Of a DNA stretch of 17,056 bases, positions 1 to 6,000 are shown one piece after another. The DNA comes from a virus. Lineage: Duplodnaviria > Heunggongvirae > Uroviricota > Caudoviricetes. Location of the stretch: positions 1-17,056 of the IMG/VR virus record IMGVR_UViG_2671180921_000025; one strand, 5' to 3'. The position numbers are program-made. Each line of letters opens with the position of its first letter. The first letter of the stretch is position 1.

Positions 1-3000
1 CTAACCCACTGATTTTAATAAGTCTCTTGTGTCACTTTGGTGACCATGGGACATCATTGGGACATAATCTGCCAGCTTCTGATTCAGCATTGCGATCTGT
101 TCTGCATTACTGTCAGTCATCCATGCTCCGTATACATTGAACACCATCAGGGCACTTGCATGGCCCATCTGGCTGGCAATGAAGCTTGGGTTTGCTCCGG
201 CAGATAATGACCAGCACGCATAAGTGTGTCGTGACTGGTATGCTTTCCGGTGCCTGATGCCCGCACGCTTAATGGCTGTTTCCCATGAGTCGCCAATAGA
301 ATCTACCTTGTAGATAAAACCGACCTGTTTGCTTTTTCTAACCACCTGGGGGTTAAATACGAAAGTACATTCATGATTCACTGAACGCCCATATTCACGT
401 AGTTGAACCTTGATGTGGTGCTGCTTACCCAGTCTTGTCATTTCAGCCTGATTTTTCAGGACACTGATAGCGGGCTGGATAAGATGCACAACCCTGTTTG
501 TACTTGCTTCAGTTTTAGGTAGAGTGAACTCACCGAGTTTCGTATAATTGCGCCTGATAGTAATAGTTCCTGCTTTCAGATCGATATCTTCCCAGGCCAG
601 GGAGACCAGTTCACCGTGACGCATTCCTGTGTACACAGCCAATGACCACAGGTTTTTCGTCTGCTGATGTCGGCAAGCATCTATCAGGCGAATAAATTCG
701 TCACGAGTTAGCGGATCTGGCTCTGCCCTGGCTCTTTTAAGAGGCTTAATTCCCTGGAAAGGATTTGCTTCTAAGTAACCGTGATCTGCAGCAAACTGAA
801 ACATTCCAGCGATTGTCGTCATGTAATAATTTACAGTAACGACGCTCCGTCCTTTTGCTGCTGCTTTGTTTTTCGTTGAATTCTGATATCCGGTCAGCAA
901 ATCTTTCCTGATATACAGCAATTCCTCTTTAGTTACCGATGACACCAGTCTGCTGCCTCCAATTTTCGGAACCATCGTTCTTGCAACGGATTCATAGCGA
1001 TTGAATGCATTTGCAGAGATTTCCATTCGTTTCAGATCCAGCCACTTTTCTTCAAGTTCCTTCACCGTAATTTCTTTTTTACTTACCCCAAAAGCCTTGA
1101 GGTTAGGAGAGTCAGGGAACTGCGCAGCGTAATCAAAGTTTCCTGTACGAATAGCAAAACATACAGATGTCCGCAGCTCTCCGGCGATCTTCCTGTTCTT
1201 GGCAGTGTCAGGGACACCAAGATTTTCCCTGACACGTTTACCTTTAAAATTAAACCAGATGCGTAATGTGCCACCGTGGTTTTCGACGCCTGTTGGATAT
1301 TTGACTTTATCCATTGATACCTCCAGACGCCCAAGAGCGATACGAGCTTACATACTTCATGGCATTAAATCACCCAGGTTGTTTGTTTTTCATTGAAGCG
1401 ACCCAGGCATCTATTGCTTTTCTGTTATACATACATTCACTGGAAGGCTTTGGATTACCGTCTGGTGATACGTGAATATACTCTCTTCCAACCATCCAGC
1501 ATTCTTTCCGGGCCCGAAGAATTGTGCCTGGTTTGAGCCCGGTAATTGCGATTAGAACGCTTTCACAAACCCATTCATTGGGAGCCAGTTGAATCACATT
1601 GCCCATGCATTACCTCACACAACACTCAGCCCACGGCAGTGGCACCACACTTCAAACATTCGTTTCACAATTTCACGACAGTAGAAACCGTCAACATCTC
1701 GTGTCAGGTCATAGCGATTGCCGTAACGCTGGTGGACCCATTGTTCAAATGCTTTATTCATTCTTTACTTCCTTTTCATGGCCCGTAATTTTTTCAGATG
1801 AGCTTCCTGTTATGTTTCTGCCAGAATTTGTCGGTATTCCAGGTGATCGATCCGTTCAAACAGTCCATTAAAATCGTTTATTTTTACCGACTGCATTTGC
1901 CCATCCATTCTTCTGTACAACACAGTGTTATTTATGCAGCGAATAATTTTTACCGGGTAACCGGCACTGTCGGTATACAGTTGTCCCTGATTAATCAAAG
2001 CGAACATTTTTTCTCCTGCTCTCTGAATAGTGTGAACTTCAGAGTCGTATGTTTGTAGCGGGTTCAATGCTGATAATTTCTGCTGAGATAAGCATCCCGG
2101 CAAGCCAGAGCTCTCCGGACAGCTTTTCATCCTTGCATTCCAGTCCGCCGATATTAATGGTGGCTATGATATCGCGCTCATCCTCGACTTCTTCATAAGG
2201 CAGCGTTGCGTACAGGCTTTCAATAGCGCAACTGATAACATCGAGTCCGGTCAGGTTGCCACCGACAGTGACTTCGAATGTTTCGCGGTATTCCCATAGC
2301 CCGAAAGTTAATCGAACGGTTTGTTTTGCCATGCGTCCGCATAACGTCAGATTTGGGTCATAGTTCATTATTTGCGGTTGGGTATTATGAGTGTTCATCT
2401 GCTTTTCCCTTAGCCCGGCGGCCTGCCGGGCATATAAGTTATTTAACCTGGATAAAGGGTGTATTGGCATCGCTGGTCATGTATTGCGGCAGTGTGCCGT
2501 TCCATTTATTGATGGCTTCCAGCTCCATAACTCCGGGGTTCTGGCGCAGAGCTTCACCGCGTAAACGAATAGCATCGGCTTCGGCCTGAGCTTTTGTGCG
2601 AATCGCATCAGCCTGTCCGGCAGCTTCCGCGCGCAACATGTTGGCTTCCGCTTCGCGCTGTTTAACTTCCTGCTCGCGCTGCAGTGTTTTCTGGTTTGCC
2701 GTGACTTTGGCGTTAATGCTGTCGATAACGGTTGGCGGGTACTCCGGTTTACCTACATAAGACAGGCTCATTACCTGAATACCGATGGGCGTCATTTCTG
2801 CCTGAATATCTTTTAGAGCTGCATCCAGTAGTTCAGATTTGCCACTGTCGATAAATTTATCAGTGGTCATTTTGCTGGCCAGCCGATTTAGTGCATCTGC
2901 TATCTTCTGGCGCAGGTCGGTGTCGGTAATGTCATCCACACCTTTGCGGTAGGTTTGAAACACCGTGGTAACTTTGGATGGATCAACCTTGTAGGCTACT

Positions 3001-6000
3001 CCGATGCGGTAACCAATGGTTGTTCCATCGCTCATCTGGAAACTGAATGGATCATCGTAGGTCTTCATCTGCTTAAAGGTCGGGAAGATATAAACTTCAG
3101 TGTTCCAGCCTGTCCAGTAGCGACCAACACCGACCACTTCACCGACGCCTTTGTCGTCGCCAAGTTTGTTGACTTTGATGCCCACATTACCAGGCTCAAC
3201 ACGATCACAACCGACAAGGCCAATGGCAGGCAGAACAATGGCTAAAGAAAAAATAATTTTTTTCATCTTTTATCCTTAGTGAAAGAAAGCCCCTTATAAA
3301 TGGCATAAATGCATGGCGGGGTCAGAAACGCCAGTGCAAAGCCAGAAATTACCGCTACCGTATCCTTCATTGATATCAGAAACGGGACGAGTAATCCGTA
3401 AATGCATGCGATAATTGCCAGTGATATGACTATTCTGAAATAAATATTCATGCTCCTCCTGATATCTTTCTGATTGCCTTTTTCAACTTTTTACTGTTAT
3501 TCACGCTACAGTAAATTTCGGCAATCTCACGTGATAACATTATTTCTCCACTGTTTTTATCTATAGCAACGAGACCGGGATTGTCTCGTATGAGTTTCTT
3601 TATCATTGGCATTGCCATAAACTCTTCTGGCGTATAGATGCGTGTATGGCGGCGAACGTGTTTTATCACAGGTGTTTTATGTTTTGATTCAACCTGAAAT
3701 ACATTAATTTTATTTTGATTTGCCATGTGTAATTTAATGTGTCACTGGTGCTTCTGGTATACCATGAGTATTCAGATCGTGAATCATTTCATCCAGAAGG
3801 AGTTCAAGCCCTTCGCGGCCCATAGCAGAGACAATGAAACCATTATCAGGATCTGCGATGAGCATTTTTTGATAGAGAAACAGAACTCGCCCCATGCCTT
3901 CAGCTTCGCCATATTTTTCAATAAATCCCCATTCGACATGGTTTTGCAGGGCAATGCGAAGTGGTCCTGGGTATATACTCAGGCAGCCATGCTTCCCCTT
4001 ATAAATAACTGCACGATCTGTAGTTCCGTTATCGTTAGGGATATCAATGGTGCCGTTCTTGCCTTCTTCTTCATTTATAAACGTCGTCACATACAGCCAT
4101 CGCCATTGAGCAATCTTCATATCGACTGAAAATCGTCCCAGTAATCCGGCATCATCGGCTTCAGCAATACATTGCATAATTCTTAAACTGTGAGAATTTG
4201 GATAATCGTATTCACCATCATTAAGCCGCTGTACGGCCTCAACATAATCAATGGTTGTATTGCCAATTTTTATGCCATGTGGCGTAACTTCTGGTCGGAA
4301 CTCTGAATGATTCATAATGTTTGCTCCTTTGCTGGTGGAATAATCGTGTAACCCGCTCTTTTTGCCATCCACAGAAATGTATCCATGCAGCCAACGAATT
4401 CATTATCCAGCAGATGTTTTGAGTAAATTACTTTCCCGTTTTCAATGGTTAGCAACACTCTTATTTTTTCGTGTATTACCCCCTCAGGCACATCCTGTAT
4501 TTTATTTCGTGCTGATGTTTCCATTATTTTATCTCCCATATGCTTTGCGCAAATACAGGTTGGCTATATGAAGATAAGAATCTCCATGTTGTGCAATGAG
4601 GCAGGCAGTTTTATACGATGCCTTATTTTTCAGGAAAGTCATAACTGAGTTCCATCTGTGAATAAAGGTTGTAACAATCCCCGGCGATAAAACCGTAATA
4701 AAGGTTTAGGGCATATTTGTTGTTATTGCGCTAATTCTTTTTCGGCAGCAGCTTTTGCATATTCACATGTAAAATTCAGAATTTCGCTGCCGAGTGTTTT
4801 CGTTTCGTGATGACTGGACATATGTAATACCTGTGTTGCATGCAATAAATGATAAACATTTACCGCAAATGAATCAGGCTCCAGACAAATGCCTTCATAA
4901 TCATCTTGTTGTGAGGTTGTTTCTGTCATTGCTCCTGAAGTGCATGCGAGCCTGTTTTTGACAATTCTCTTTCCTCTAATCACTATATCGGCAACATCTA
5001 TTGCCTTTACAACCTCCGGGAGAAGTTCCGGGTTTGTATAATCAAAGTCATCAACATGGAGAACAGTTATGTTTTCGAACTTTTTCATGGCTTCCTCAGC
5101 TGACTTATATGTTCTGCTATATAGCGAGTCTCAGAAGTGTTTTCATATTGAGACTGTTTCCGCAATGATTGATAAAAATGTTCGCATGTACCTTGAGGGG
5201 CGAAGCGGCGATTATGTCACCATTGGTATTGGTTCTTCCGTAGAAGAGCTTCGCGAGATAAGGAGCAAACTTGTTGAGATGCGTCATGGTGTTGCTGCTC
5301 CTCACTTTTTGGTTGCTCCGGAGGAGTAACCTCGCCAGTTAACAGCCACATCGGATCGCAGCCAAGAACATTAGCCAGTGGGATAAGCATACTGATGGTT
5401 GGTTCATACTCTCCGCTCTCCCACTGGATGATGATTTCTTCATCGAGTTCGAGCAGCCTGGCGAGTTCGGCGGTTGTTAAGCCGCAGGTTTCGCGTTGGG
5501 TGCGAATCCGATTCTGGGAATTAATAGCTAAATTTTGTTTGCATAAACGTGACGCGGTGAGGCTATATTTTTGAGTTACAGCCAGGATGGAGCTGGCAAG
5601 TTCAATTAACTCAGGGTTATTGCTGCTATACAGTAGTGCACCAGCCCCTACTAAGAGCTGAATATTCTCAAGAGCATCGTGCTGATTTGTTGGTAATCCC
5701 ATATACGATGACATTTTTCTCATCCTCTATAATTGCTTTGGTGAGTTCGATACCTATGTCAAGATAATAGGTTTACCGATTTCATCTGTCAATCGGTTTA
5801 TCGATTTTTTTCCCAAAAAAAAGCCCACTTAAGAGTGGGCGGGTTAAATGATTTTTGCTTATGCAAAACGGTGTAGTGTCATAGGCCAACTGACAATTAC
5901 TTTTCCGTCAATGTGAAGTTGTTCGAAGTCTTCCGGTTCGATAGCCCAATCCTTGTAAGCTGGGTTGTCAGATATCACCGTTAGAGTATCTTTGATTTTT

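What the first reader, a model, noticed from the sequence alone, without database searches (positions are those of the whole stretch)
2439..3451. SPFH-domain lipoprotein with a coupled small membrane protein in the early-left accessory region
A lipobox-bearing prohibitin-like protein is paired by overlapping stop/start with a 62-aa double-TM protein, resembling SPFH/NfeD-type pairs. It sits in the int-proximal accessory region. Such membrane modules in prophages are candidates for superinfection exclusion or abortive infection.
Basis: partly seen in the sequence, partly recalled or inferred. Interest (0 to 1): 0.5.

Follow-up and report, generated by a model that had tools for sequence, protein, structure and literature searches.

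The report
Phage SPFH lipoprotein with hairpin partner
A Shiga-toxin prophage carries a tightly coupled pair of membrane genes, a prohibitin/HflK-like lipoprotein and a tiny two-helix partner, that is also found in many temperate and virulent phages and in some bacterial chromosomes; its function is still unknown, and nothing found here marks it as a defence system.

Summary
On the minus strand, a 62-aa two-TM protein (3263-3451) overlaps by ATGA the start of a 275-aa lipobox protein (2439-3266). That protein has a Pfam Band_7/SPFH domain (E=4.8e-31), and its AlphaFold model matches the cage-forming proteins HflK/C, prohibitin, erlin, stomatin and QmcA.

The small ORF is a real gene: dN/dS is 0.1-0.2. 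Its family is found immediately upstream of SPFH homologues in 54 of 77 diverse genomes and nowhere else among 9,731 ORFs. It is occasionally fused in frame to the SPFH gene. It is not NfeD and matches no Pfam family.

- **Distribution:** the pair occurs in lambdoid, P2-like and P1-like phages and in phage-plasmids. It also occurs in virulent N4-, rV5- and LUZ24-like phages, and as a chromosomal gene in Dyella.
- **Accessory status:** about 10% of complete E. coli genomes carry it, and the closest Stx2f prophages lack it.
- **Expression:** it has no promoter of its own and sits in the repressor-controlled leftward early operon.
- **Defence:** PADLOC gives no match.

The most likely reading is an inner-membrane, periplasm-facing SPFH scaffold that acts during lytic development. 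Superinfection exclusion or abortive infection remains an untested minority reading. This is a new variant of a known kind, of moderate interest.

The parts
3263..3451 (-). Gene for a 62-aa inner-membrane helical hairpin (TM1, loop with the P-x-L-I-S-x-x-D/S-T motif, TM2, basic C-terminus). It is the dedicated partner of the SPFH lipoprotein.
   Evidence: ORF. phrog_1130 'membrane protein', no Pfam hit. Conserved in 78/79 relatives. dN/dS 0.10-0.20. Family alignment and specific synteny.
2439..3266 (-). Gene for the 275-aa SPFH/Band 7 lipoprotein (stop codon 2439-2441).
   Evidence: Pfam PF01145 E=4.8e-31. phrog_200 E=5e-113. AF2 model. Foldseek to HflK/C, prohibitin, erlin, stomatin, QmcA.
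3207..3266 (-). Lipoprotein signal peptide with lipobox LVGC (Cys20 codon at 3207-3209). Asp21 and Arg22 follow, so Asp at +2.
   Evidence: Sequence. C-D-R is found in 100 of 120 cluster representatives of the enterobacterial clade, counting P0027 (CDRA), which the pattern used missed. Inner-membrane retention is inferred from the E. coli +2 rule.
2643..3203 (-). SPFH domain proper (residues 22-208).
   Evidence: Pfam envelope. AF2 strands 20-94 and helices 96-161.
2541..2735 (-). Long Ala/Glu-rich helix (residues 178-242), equivalent to the coiled-coil wall of SPFH cages.
   Evidence: AF2 H178-242. Aligns to the HflK coiled-coil region.
2442..2540 (-). Conserved C-terminal tail (residues 243-275) with W255, G257 and P260 of the I-x-K-W-N/D-G-x-L-P motif, invariant or nearly invariant across the family. 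Candidate cage-closing segment.
   Evidence: Invariant columns in the 58-sequence alignment at 30-60% identity. Low pLDDT in the monomer model. Short C-terminal strands appear in the model of the fused homologue.
3263..3266 (-). ATGA stop/start overlap that couples translation of the hairpin gene and the SPFH gene.
   Evidence: Coordinates and sequence. Across 54 loci the junction is an overlap in 17, a gap of 12 nt or less in 33, an in-frame fusion in 2, and split by IS1 in 2.
3273..3277 (-). Shine-Dalgarno AAGGA, 6 nt upstream of the SPFH ATG and inside the hairpin gene.
   Evidence: Read from the sequence.
3455..3460 (-). Shine-Dalgarno AGGAGG upstream of the hairpin ATG.
   Evidence: Read from the sequence.
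3448..3726 (-). Upstream 92-aa ORF, also joined by an ATGA overlap. It is variable and not part of the conserved module.
   Evidence: Present in only 5 of the 83 loci held, all among the 80 IMG/VR loci. No Pfam or PHROG family.
5764..5792 (-). Strong sigma-70-like promoter (TTGACA-17-TATTAT), just downstream of the CI-like repressor gene and its terminator-like hairpin (5823-5840). Probable start of the leftward early operon that contains the pair.
   Evidence: Consensus scan. CI-like S24 repressor at 5859-6551 and HTH protein at 5217-5723. Function is inferred.

Best explanation
The locus is a two-gene, translationally coupled inner-membrane module.

Proposed mechanism:
- The 62-aa protein inserts as a helical hairpin with both ends in the cytoplasm and a short conserved periplasmic loop.
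- The 275-aa protein is exported and lipidated at Cys20. Because of Asp at +2 it is kept in the outer leaflet of the inner membrane.
- Its SPFH domain, its roughly 65-residue helix and its conserved C-terminal tail therefore face the periplasm, the same orientation as HflK/C.
- By analogy with every solved SPFH protein of this architecture, it is expected to assemble into a ring or cage that fences off a patch of inner membrane.
- The hairpin would be its built-in membrane partner. It takes the place that a transmembrane anchor or an NfeD protein holds in other SPFH systems.

Expression and likely role:
- In this prophage the pair is co-transcribed with the leftward early operon. It should therefore act after induction or infection, not in the quiescent lysogen.
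- The same cassette is carried by many virulent phages, and its mature part is highly conserved across unrelated phage backbones.
- I therefore think it most likely acts on a conserved host feature: the bilayer itself or a conserved inner-membrane machine such as FtsH-type quality control. It would keep the inner membrane organised and intact during lytic development.
- I think it less likely to be a phage-specific defence.

Shown here: the genes, the fold, the coupling, the conserved synteny, the fusions, the distribution and the operon position. Inferred: lipidation, inner-membrane sorting, oligomeric cage formation, contact between hairpin and SPFH protein, timing of expression and the cellular target.
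For: Fold and architecture:
- Pfam Band_7, E=4.8e-31.
- AF2 model with an SPFH domain and a 65-residue helix.
- Foldseek top hits are all cage formers: HflK/C 7vhq, prohibitin 8rrh, erlin, stomatin, flotillin and QmcA-YbbJ 8z5g.
- HflK is the closest solved sequence, and the weak NCBIfam hits are to hflC and hflK only.

Inner-membrane, periplasmic placement:
- The lipobox is followed by Asp+2. C-D-R is found in 100 of 120 clade representatives, and 11 lineages have Tyr in place of Cys but keep the hydrophobic segment.
- Natural in-frame fusions of hairpin, basic linker, signal-peptide-like third TM and SPFH domain occur in about 18-25 of 150 distant cluster representatives and in loci L132 and L140.
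- The fused homologue models as three TM helices followed by the SPFH domain, pLDDT 82.6.

Dedicated partner:
- The hairpin HMM hits only the ORF directly upstream of the SPFH gene in 54 of 77 genome loci, with no hit elsewhere among 9,731 ORFs.
- The junctions are overlaps or gaps of 12 nt or less.
- dN/dS is 0.1-0.2.

Lytic-phase role and conserved target:
- No promoter or terminator of its own was found, and the pair sits inside a string of overlapping leftward genes headed by a promoter next to the CI-like repressor gene.
- In P88 it lies in the early operon, and in a P1 variant it lies in the C1-controlled ban operon, replacing tciABC.
- 708 phage records carry the SPFH family, most of them virulent.
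- The hairpin partner is present in N4-type PMBT57, 4MG, Pseudomonas TL, Aeromonas Gekk3-15 and Burkholderia Maja.
- The DNA encoding the mature protein is 87-90% identical between unrelated backbones.
- There is a chromosomal syntenic copy in Dyella.
- PADLOC gives no match.
Against: - No experiment exists for this family. Papers up to 2026 call the role of phage SPFH proteins unclear.
- Oligomerisation and the hairpin-SPFH contact were not modelled, because only monomer prediction was available.
- Asp+2 is followed by Arg at +3, which may weaken inner-membrane retention. That point rests on my recollection of the Lol-avoidance literature and was not tested.
- Four clade members have C-E-Y, and across the wider family the +2 residue varies.
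- The promoter scan uses a simple consensus, so a weak or non-sigma-70 promoter could be missed.
- A prophage-borne HflK/C-like protein of Pasteurella is detectable in lysogen cultures and outer-membrane vesicles. That would argue for expression in the lysogen and a non-inner-membrane location, if it is a homologue, which I could not test.
- Early-expressed membrane proteins of virulent phages can be superinfection-exclusion factors (T4 Imm and Sp are examples, cited from my own knowledge), so wide distribution in virulent phages does not exclude that role.
Confidence: 0.5

Rival explanations
1. Superinfection exclusion or abortive infection. The membrane pair blocks DNA entry of incoming phages at the inner membrane. 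Alternatively, the hairpin is a latent pore held in check by the SPFH cage and released on infection.
For: - It is a small inner-membrane protein plus a periplasmic lipoprotein in a variable accessory slot.
- PHROG files the hairpin under 'moron, auxiliary metabolic gene and host takeover'.
- In the N4-type phage PMBT57 the pair follows a gene annotated 'superinfection exclusion protein'.
- Early expression fits exclusion during lytic growth.
Against: - No PADLOC match for either protein or its neighbours.
- No promoter of its own for expression in the lysogen.
- The mature protein is highly conserved across unrelated phages and hosts instead of diversifying.
- It is a syntenic chromosomal gene pair in Dyella.
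- No paper in the searched library links SPFH to exclusion or defence.
Confidence: 0.2
2. HflK/C mimic that modulates FtsH. The periplasmic cage traps FtsH or competes for it. It would change turnover of phage regulators (CII-like, Xis) or of phage membrane proteins, as a functional analogue of lambda CIII in the leftward early operon.
For: - HflK is the closest solved sequence, and HflK/C are the top fold matches.
- The only NCBIfam hits are to hflC and hflK.
- It has the same periplasmic orientation as HflK/C (inferred).
- It sits in the leftward early operon, where lambda keeps cIII (position; the lambda comparison is from my own knowledge).
- Annotators of other phages have proposed the same idea.
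Against: - Scores are far below the HflK and HflC family cut-offs: 24-26 bits against 134-159.
- The family occurs in haloarchaeal viruses and in many virulent phages that make no lysogeny decision.
- No FtsH-contact residues could be tested.
- HflK and HflC act as a heteromer, whereas only one SPFH gene is present here.
Confidence: 0.15
3. Lysis-timing module. The hairpin is a holin- or antiholin-like protein, and the SPFH scaffold controls its clustering in the membrane.
For: - The hairpin has class II holin-like features: about 60-80 aa, two TM segments and a charged C-terminus.
- One database entry labels a Pseudomonas phage homologue 'Holin'.
- In Staphylococcus Kayvirus the SPFH gene mbpS and the holin-like mbpV lie directly after holA and lysK.
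Against: - In this phage the pair lies about 12 kb from the lysis cassette (lysozyme at 16191-16688). The close relative has its own class II holin next to that lysozyme.
- The pair is expressed with early genes.
- The Dyella chromosomal copies have no lysis context.
- MbpV is not detectably related to the hairpin family.
Confidence: 0.08
4. Lysogenic-conversion or virulence factor. This would be a prophage lipoprotein exposed on vesicles that stimulates host innate immunity, as reported for Pasteurella PM0222.
For: - A prophage-encoded HflK/C-like protein of 25-35 kDa in P. multocida is found in outer-membrane vesicles. It activates TLR1/2, and its deletion attenuates virulence.
- This window is a Shiga-toxin-converting prophage.
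Against: - Homology to PM0222 could not be tested, because the sequence is not held.
- Asp+2 argues against outer-membrane or vesicle targeting.
- Virulent phages and soil bacteria carry the pair.
- No promoter of its own was found.
Confidence: 0.05

Closest known systems
HflK/HflC (E. coli FtsH-modulating SPFH cage, PDB 7vhp/7vhq/7wi3)
   Same: - SPFH domain followed by a long Ala/Glu-rich helix and a C-terminal segment.
- It is the best solved-sequence match and the best fold match.
- The SPFH domain is predicted to lie on the periplasmic face of the inner membrane.
   Different: - Identity is only 17%, and scores are far below the HflK and HflC family cut-offs.
- It is anchored by a lipid (lipobox), not by an N-terminal TM helix.
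- There is a single SPFH gene, not a K/C heteropair.
- It has a dedicated 62-aa hairpin partner.
- It is phage-borne and mobile.
SPFH-NfeD operon pairs (QmcA-YbbJ, YqiK-YqiJ, archaeal stomatin PH1511-PH1510)
   Same: An SPFH protein is encoded next to, and co-translated with, a small membrane protein. The pairing is conserved over long evolutionary distance and is sometimes fused.
   Different: - The partner has no NfeD/OB-fold domain and matches no Pfam family.
- QmcA and YqiK face the cytoplasm (from my own knowledge), whereas this pair is predicted to face the periplasm.
- The SPFH protein here is a lipoprotein.
phrog_200 'lipoprotein' and phrog_1130 'membrane protein' (phiP27 L05, P88 gp12 and gp11, N4-type PMBT57, 4MG_116 and 4MG_114, Pseudomonas TL gp12 and gp10)
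   Same: These are direct homologues. Identity is 97% to phiP27 L05 and 92% to P88 gp12. The gene order is the same.
   Different: None in kind. This window carries one allele of the hairpin and signal-peptide block. The P88 and P1-variant alleles are too diverged for tblastn. Several records mis-name the SPFH protein 'serine protease'.
Kayvirus MbpV-MbpS (Staphylococcus phage K/A5W)
   Same: A phage-encoded SPFH protein is preceded by a small membrane protein. Its function is equally unknown.
   Different: - Identity is 26%.
- MbpS has a TM anchor, not a lipobox.
- MbpV has one TM plus a charged tail and does not match the hairpin HMM.
- It is located in the lysis region.

Membership tests
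SPFH / Band 7 superfamily (PF01145) | Sequence match to the Band_7 profile above the gathering score | tested here: met
   E=4.8e-31, 108.6 bits against a cut-off of 23.6, covering profile positions 2-176 of 176.
SPFH / Band 7 superfamily (PF01145) | SPFH alpha/beta fold followed by a long coiled-coil helix | tested here: met
   AF2 model, pLDDT 77, helix 178-242. Foldseek probability 1.0, E=1e-13 to 1e-15, to HflK/C, prohibitin and erlin.
SPFH / Band 7 superfamily (PF01145) | Assembly into a large membrane-attached ring or cage | not testable with these tools
   Only monomer prediction was available. Inferred from the architecture and from the conserved C-terminal motif.
HflK / HflC (TIGR01933 / TIGR01932) | Score above the equivalog cut-off | tested here: not met
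   23.9 and 26.0 bits against cut-offs of 159.4 and 134.4.
HflK / HflC (TIGR01933 / TIGR01932) | N-terminal transmembrane anchor and paired K and C genes | tested here: not met
   A lipobox signal peptide replaces the anchor, and a single SPFH gene sits beside a 62-aa hairpin gene.
HflK / HflC (TIGR01933 / TIGR01932) | Physical association with FtsH | not testable with these tools
   Needs pull-down or structural work.
SPFH-NfeD operon | Partner carries an NfeD (PF01957) OB-fold domain | tested here: not met
   No Pfam family at E<=0.01 for the 62-aa protein. None of 123 partner homologues carries a precomputed Pfam domain. After two TM helices, 62 aa leaves no room for an OB-fold.
SPFH-NfeD operon | Partner gene adjacent to and co-transcribed with the SPFH gene, conserved across taxa | tested here: met
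   ATGA overlap. Adjacent in 54 of 77 diverse loci with no hits elsewhere. Fusions occur.
Bacterial lipoprotein (Lgt/LspA substrate) | n-region, hydrophobic region and lipobox [LVI][ASTVI][GAS]C within the first ~25 residues | tested here: met
   MKK-IIFSLAIVLPAIG-LVGC20. 111 of 150 distant family representatives match the loose lipobox pattern that I used.
Bacterial lipoprotein (Lgt/LspA substrate) | Lipidation and signal peptidase II cleavage; inner-membrane retention through Asp+2 | not testable with these tools
   Asp21 is present and is conserved in 113 of 120 clade representatives: 99 CDR, 11 YDR and 2 CDN in the counter, plus P0027 (CDRA). The sorting outcome is inferred from the E. coli +2 rule.
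Known anti-phage defence systems (PADLOC-DB v2.0) | Match of any component to a defence-system profile | tested here: not met
   No families at E<=0.1 for the SPFH protein, the hairpin or four neighbouring ORFs.
Class II holin | Small two-TM protein with a charged C-terminus, encoded in the lysis cassette next to the endolysin | tested here: not met
   The topology resembles a holin. However, the gene lies about 12 kb from the lysozyme gene at 16191-16688, and the close relative has a separate class II holin there. PHROG gives 'membrane protein', not holin.

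The most novel reading that the evidence does not exclude
The hairpin plus SPFH-lipoprotein pair may be a previously unrecognised class of SPFH system. It would be a periplasm-facing cage with its own minimal membrane partner in place of NfeD. Phages of many lineages, both temperate and virulent, would carry it as a portable device to take control of the host inner membrane. It might cage a conserved host machine such as FtsH, hold the membrane potential until programmed lysis, or close the membrane to superinfecting DNA. If so, a phage cassette that is easy to express would give a direct experimental handle on what bacterial SPFH cages do.
Probability: 0.25. Interest if true: 0.65.

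Novelty: new variant of a known kind. Interest (0 to 1): 0.4.

Why it matters
[quoted passage not shown] What most bacterial members do is still unclear.

This work shows that one lipoprotein branch travels with a dedicated 60-80-aa hairpin partner. It moves as a two-gene cassette through lambdoid, P2-like, P1-like, N4-like, rV5-like and LUZ24-like phages and phage-plasmids. About one in ten complete E. coli genomes carries it.

That gives a compact, non-essential and easily transplanted system for asking what an SPFH cage encloses and why a virus would want one. For Shiga-toxin prophages specifically, it is one more variable early gene that could affect induction, lysis timing or phage-phage competition. 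It should not be listed as a defence system on present evidence.

Tried and rejected
1. **P1 upl-plp.** I asked whether P1's 'upstream of plp / putative lipoprotein' pair is the same module. It is not. The P1 reference genes are unrelated sequences that overlap the tRNA region. The SPFH pair of the P1 variant MH422554 sits next to them, in place of tciABC.
2. **NfeD identity of the small protein.** Rejected: no Pfam hit.
3. **'Serine protease' label.** This appears in the phiP27, P88 and Stx-phage records. No protease domain is present, only Band_7, so it is a legacy mis-annotation.
4. **PADLOC defence profiles.** No match.
5. **Wide alignment for locus scans.** The search for related loci with the 58-sequence alignment failed for lack of a conserved stretch. 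A narrower alignment worked.
6. **Literature searches.** I searched for SPFH with defence, exclusion, holin and CRISPRi fitness. Only speculation turned up and no functional data.
7. **Pasteurella PM0222.** Its sequence (OAZ06802.1) is not held, so homology could not be tested.
8. **Own promoter or terminator for the pair.** None was found by the consensus scan. Promoter-like sites are fewer than in shuffled sequence.
9. **Third conserved gene.** I checked whether the upstream 92-aa ORF or the downstream DUF5406 gene is part of the module. The 92-aa ORF is present in only 5 loci, and the downstream neighbours differ between backbones.
10. **Spurious small ORF.** Rejected by dN/dS and by the conserved synteny.

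Full report
**What is in the window**

The window is the early half of a Shiga-toxin-converting prophage. It holds the following genes:
- int (1-1314) and xis (1370-1606), both on the minus strand
- a run of overlapping leftward genes
- a CI-like S24 repressor (5859-6551, minus strand)
- a YdaS/Cro-like gene, a helicase, a primase and antiterminator Q on the plus strand
- stxA (13781-14740) and stxB (14747-15016)
- two tRNA genes and a lysozyme gene

Its left arm is 92% identical to phage phiP27. Its right arm is 99.4% identical to Stx2f prophages of E. coli.

**Observation**

Both ORFs of the finding exist on the minus strand.

The 275-aa product of 2439-3266 starts MKKIIFSLAIVLPAIGLVG-C, a canonical lipoprotein signal peptide with the lipobox LVGC.
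- Pfam places a complete Band_7/SPFH domain at residues 22-208 (E=4.8e-31).
- PHROG puts the protein in phrog_200 'lipoprotein' (E=5e-113).
- An AlphaFold2 model built on 28 homologues (pLDDT 77) shows the SPFH sheet with helices. It then shows one uninterrupted helix over residues 178-242 and a tail that is unstructured in the monomer.
- Foldseek against the PDB returns HflK and HflC first, then prohibitin, erlin, stomatin, flotillin and QmcA. All are proteins that build membrane cages.
- By sequence, the only solved relatives are HflK and a prohibitin coiled coil, with E about 1e-3.

The 62-aa product of 3263-3451 has two hydrophobic stretches around the loop SMKDT, and a basic C-terminus. 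Its stop codon overlaps the lipoprotein start as ATGA, and each gene has its own Shine-Dalgarno sequence.

**The small ORF is a real gene and a dedicated partner**

- It sits in the same place in 78 of 79 close relatives from IMG/VR.
- dN/dS against 31 alleles is 0.10-0.20.
- In phage P88 (P2-like) and in a P1 variant, the SPFH protein is 91-92% identical. There the upstream gene encodes a 67- or 78-aa protein that tblastn cannot match. It nevertheless aligns as the same hairpin with the same loop motif, P-x-(L/M)-(I/V)-S-x-x-(D/S)-T.
- Among 150 representatives of the wider SPFH-lipoprotein family (30-64% identity), about 18-25 are 320-390 aa long. In these the hairpin is fused in frame to the front of the lipoprotein.
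- The order in the fusions is hairpin, basic linker, signal-peptide-like third helix, then SPFH domain. That order is topologically consistent. One such fusion models as three TM helices followed by the SPFH domain (pLDDT 82.6).
- I built an HMM of the hairpin and searched 80 loci from species-representative genomes that encode SPFH relatives. It hit the ORF immediately upstream on the same strand in 54 of 77 usable loci at E<1e-3. It hit nothing else among 9,731 six-frame ORFs.
- The junction in those 54 loci is an overlap in 17, a gap of 12 nt or less in 33, and an in-frame fusion in 2. In 2 Shigella/E. coli loci an IS1 element has landed exactly between the two genes.
- No member of the partner family carries a Pfam domain or an informative name.

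**Where the pair occurs**

The cassette moves between unrelated backbones:
- phiP27-like lambdoid prophages, next to int-xis
- the early operon of P2-like P88
- the C1-controlled ban operon of a P1 variant, where it replaces tciABC
- phage-plasmids of about 110 kb

It is not confined to temperate elements. tblastn finds the SPFH protein in 708 phage records, and most are virulent phages: Kayvirus, Bruynoghevirus, Ounavirinae, phiCbK-like phages, SPO1-like phages, jumbo phages and haloviruses.

The hairpin partner is present in these virulent or presumed-virulent phages:
- directly upstream in N4-type PMBT57, Aeromonas Gekk3-15 and Burkholderia Maja
- one gene further upstream in rV5-like 4MG and in Pseudomonas TL
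- a weak candidate in Erwinia phiEa104

In Dyella and related Rhodanobacteraceae, the pair is a chromosomal gene pair. It has conserved neighbours there: a BlaR1-like peptidase, hemerythrin-like proteins and ribonucleotide reductase.

In E. coli, 571 of 5,426 complete genomes have it, at 418 chromosomal and 241 plasmid places. The Stx2f prophages closest to this window carry other genes in the same slot. It is therefore an accessory gene pair, not a core phage function.

The DNA for the mature protein is 87-90% identical between backbones. Similarity stops at the lipobox, so the signal peptide and the hairpin gene diverge together as a block.

**Placement in the cell (inferred)**

- In the enterobacterial clade the residue after the lipidated Cys is Asp in nearly all members. 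C-D-R occurs in 100 of 120 representatives and C-D-N in 2.
- In E. coli, Asp at +2 is the inner-membrane retention signal. This is established knowledge of the Lol pathway. Arg at +3 may weaken it, which I recall but did not test.
- Eleven lineages have Tyr in place of Cys but keep the hydrophobic segment. That would leave a membrane anchor.
- The natural fusions tie the SPFH domain to an inner-membrane hairpin.

Together these points place the SPFH domain on the periplasmic face of the inner membrane, the orientation of HflK/C. Across the wider family the +2 residue varies. The sorting argument therefore holds only for the enterobacterial clade.

**Expression (inferred)**

The consensus scan finds no promoter or terminator around the pair. 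The genes from 4539 down to 1810 overlap or abut. The only strong leftward promoter-like site (5792-5764, TTGACA-17-TATTAT) lies just after the repressor gene and its terminator-like hairpin. In P88 and in the P1 variant the pair also sits in repressor-controlled early operons. The pair should therefore be made after induction or infection.

**Mechanism**

The best-supported picture is structural. It is a lipid-anchored, periplasm-facing SPFH ring or cage on the inner membrane, with a minimal hairpin partner in place of a TM anchor or an NfeD protein.

What the cage does is not known, and papers up to 2026 say so. I favour a role during lytic growth on a conserved host feature, either membrane organisation and integrity or a conserved inner-membrane machine. 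The reasons are:
- Virulent phages carry the pair.
- The mature protein is strongly conserved across unrelated phages instead of diversifying.
- A bacterial lineage keeps it as a housekeeping-like chromosomal pair.

The rival readings are:
- **FtsH modulator.** This is a specific version of the same idea. It fits the HflK/C resemblance and the lambda cIII precedent, which I cite from my own knowledge. The family score is far below the HflK and HflC cut-offs, and archaeal viruses also carry the family.
- **Superinfection exclusion or abortive infection.** This has no positive evidence. PADLOC gives no match, and no paper in the searched library supports it. It remains possible for an early membrane protein.
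- **Lysis timing.** This is suggested only by the holin-like shape of the hairpin and by the Kayvirus context.
- **Virulence lipoprotein.** This is suggested only by Pasteurella PM0222, whose homology I could not test.

**Comparison with known systems, and verdict**

- The protein is a member of the SPFH superfamily.
- It is not HflK or HflC.
- The pair is analogous to SPFH-NfeD operons but fails their defining feature, the NfeD domain.
- It belongs to two existing but uncharacterised phage protein groups, phrog_200 and phrog_1130.

I rate it a new variant of a known kind, of moderate interest.

Noticed in passing
window 13781-15016, 15530-15683, 16191-16688: The window carries Shiga toxin genes: stxA (RIP domain) and stxB (SLT_beta). 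They lie in the stretch that is 99.4% identical overall to Stx2f prophages. tRNA-Thr, tRNA-Gly and a phage lysozyme gene follow. The element is a mosaic of a phiP27-like left arm and an Stx2f-phage right arm.
   Followed up: partly
L088 3230-4000 and L089 (Shigella flexneri and E. coli chromosomes): An IS1-sized insertion of about 770 bp sits exactly between the hairpin gene and the SPFH gene. It breaks the translational coupling but leaves both ORFs intact.
   Followed up: partly
P0109, P0110 and nine other cluster representatives (about 110-kb phage-plasmid contigs); compare window 3207-3209: A widespread lineage has Tyr in place of the lipobox Cys (IIGYDRVEPG). Its SPFH protein therefore cannot be lipidated and may be held by an uncleaved signal anchor. 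Single-cluster variants with Trp or Phe at that position also exist.
   Followed up: partly
window about 3207-3451, compared with P88 (L002) and P1 variant (L003): DNA similarity between phage backbones is 87-90% across the mature SPFH coding region. It stops at the lipobox, so the signal peptide and the hairpin gene diverge together as a block. This could reflect relaxed constraint on TM segments or distinct co-adapted alleles.
   Followed up: partly
GenBank records AJ298298, NC_026014 and the LC5678xx Stx phages; P0081, P0090: The SPFH lipoprotein is repeatedly annotated 'serine protease', and once 'transposase'. Only a Band_7 domain is present, so the label looks like inherited mis-annotation.
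   Followed up: yes
L102, L121 and about 40 other Dyella/Rhodanobacteraceae loci: The hairpin plus SPFH pair is a syntenic chromosomal locus there. It lies between a BlaI/BlaR1-like pair and hemerythrin-like genes plus ribonucleotide reductase. So the module is also a host gene, and the direction of transfer between hosts and phages is open.
   Followed up: partly
L087 (Staphylococcus phage A5W) 1654-2753: In Kayvirus the distant SPFH homologue MbpS is preceded by MbpV, a one-TM protein with a charged tail. The two lie directly after the endolysin gene lysK and before the transglycosylase gene tgl. This is a lysis-region context, unlike that of the proteobacterial phages.
   Followed up: partly
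window 3448-3726 and 3734-4539: Three more leftward ORFs upstream of the pair have no known function. They are a 92-aa ORF, a 212-aa ORF (phrog_1515) and a 75-aa ORF. The 92-aa ORF is joined to the hairpin gene by a second ATGA overlap but is present in only a few relatives.
   Followed up: partly
window 5217-5840: A 168-aa HTH_3 protein is encoded directly downstream of the CI-like repressor gene. A terminator-like hairpin (5823-5840) and a near-consensus promoter (5764-5792) lie in front of it. This could be a second immunity-region regulator or the first gene of the leftward early operon.
   Followed up: no
L168 907-1221 (N4-type phage PMBT57): A 104-aa acidic protein annotated 'superinfection exclusion protein' lies just upstream of the hairpin-SPFH pair. 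The basis of that annotation is unknown to me.
   Followed up: no
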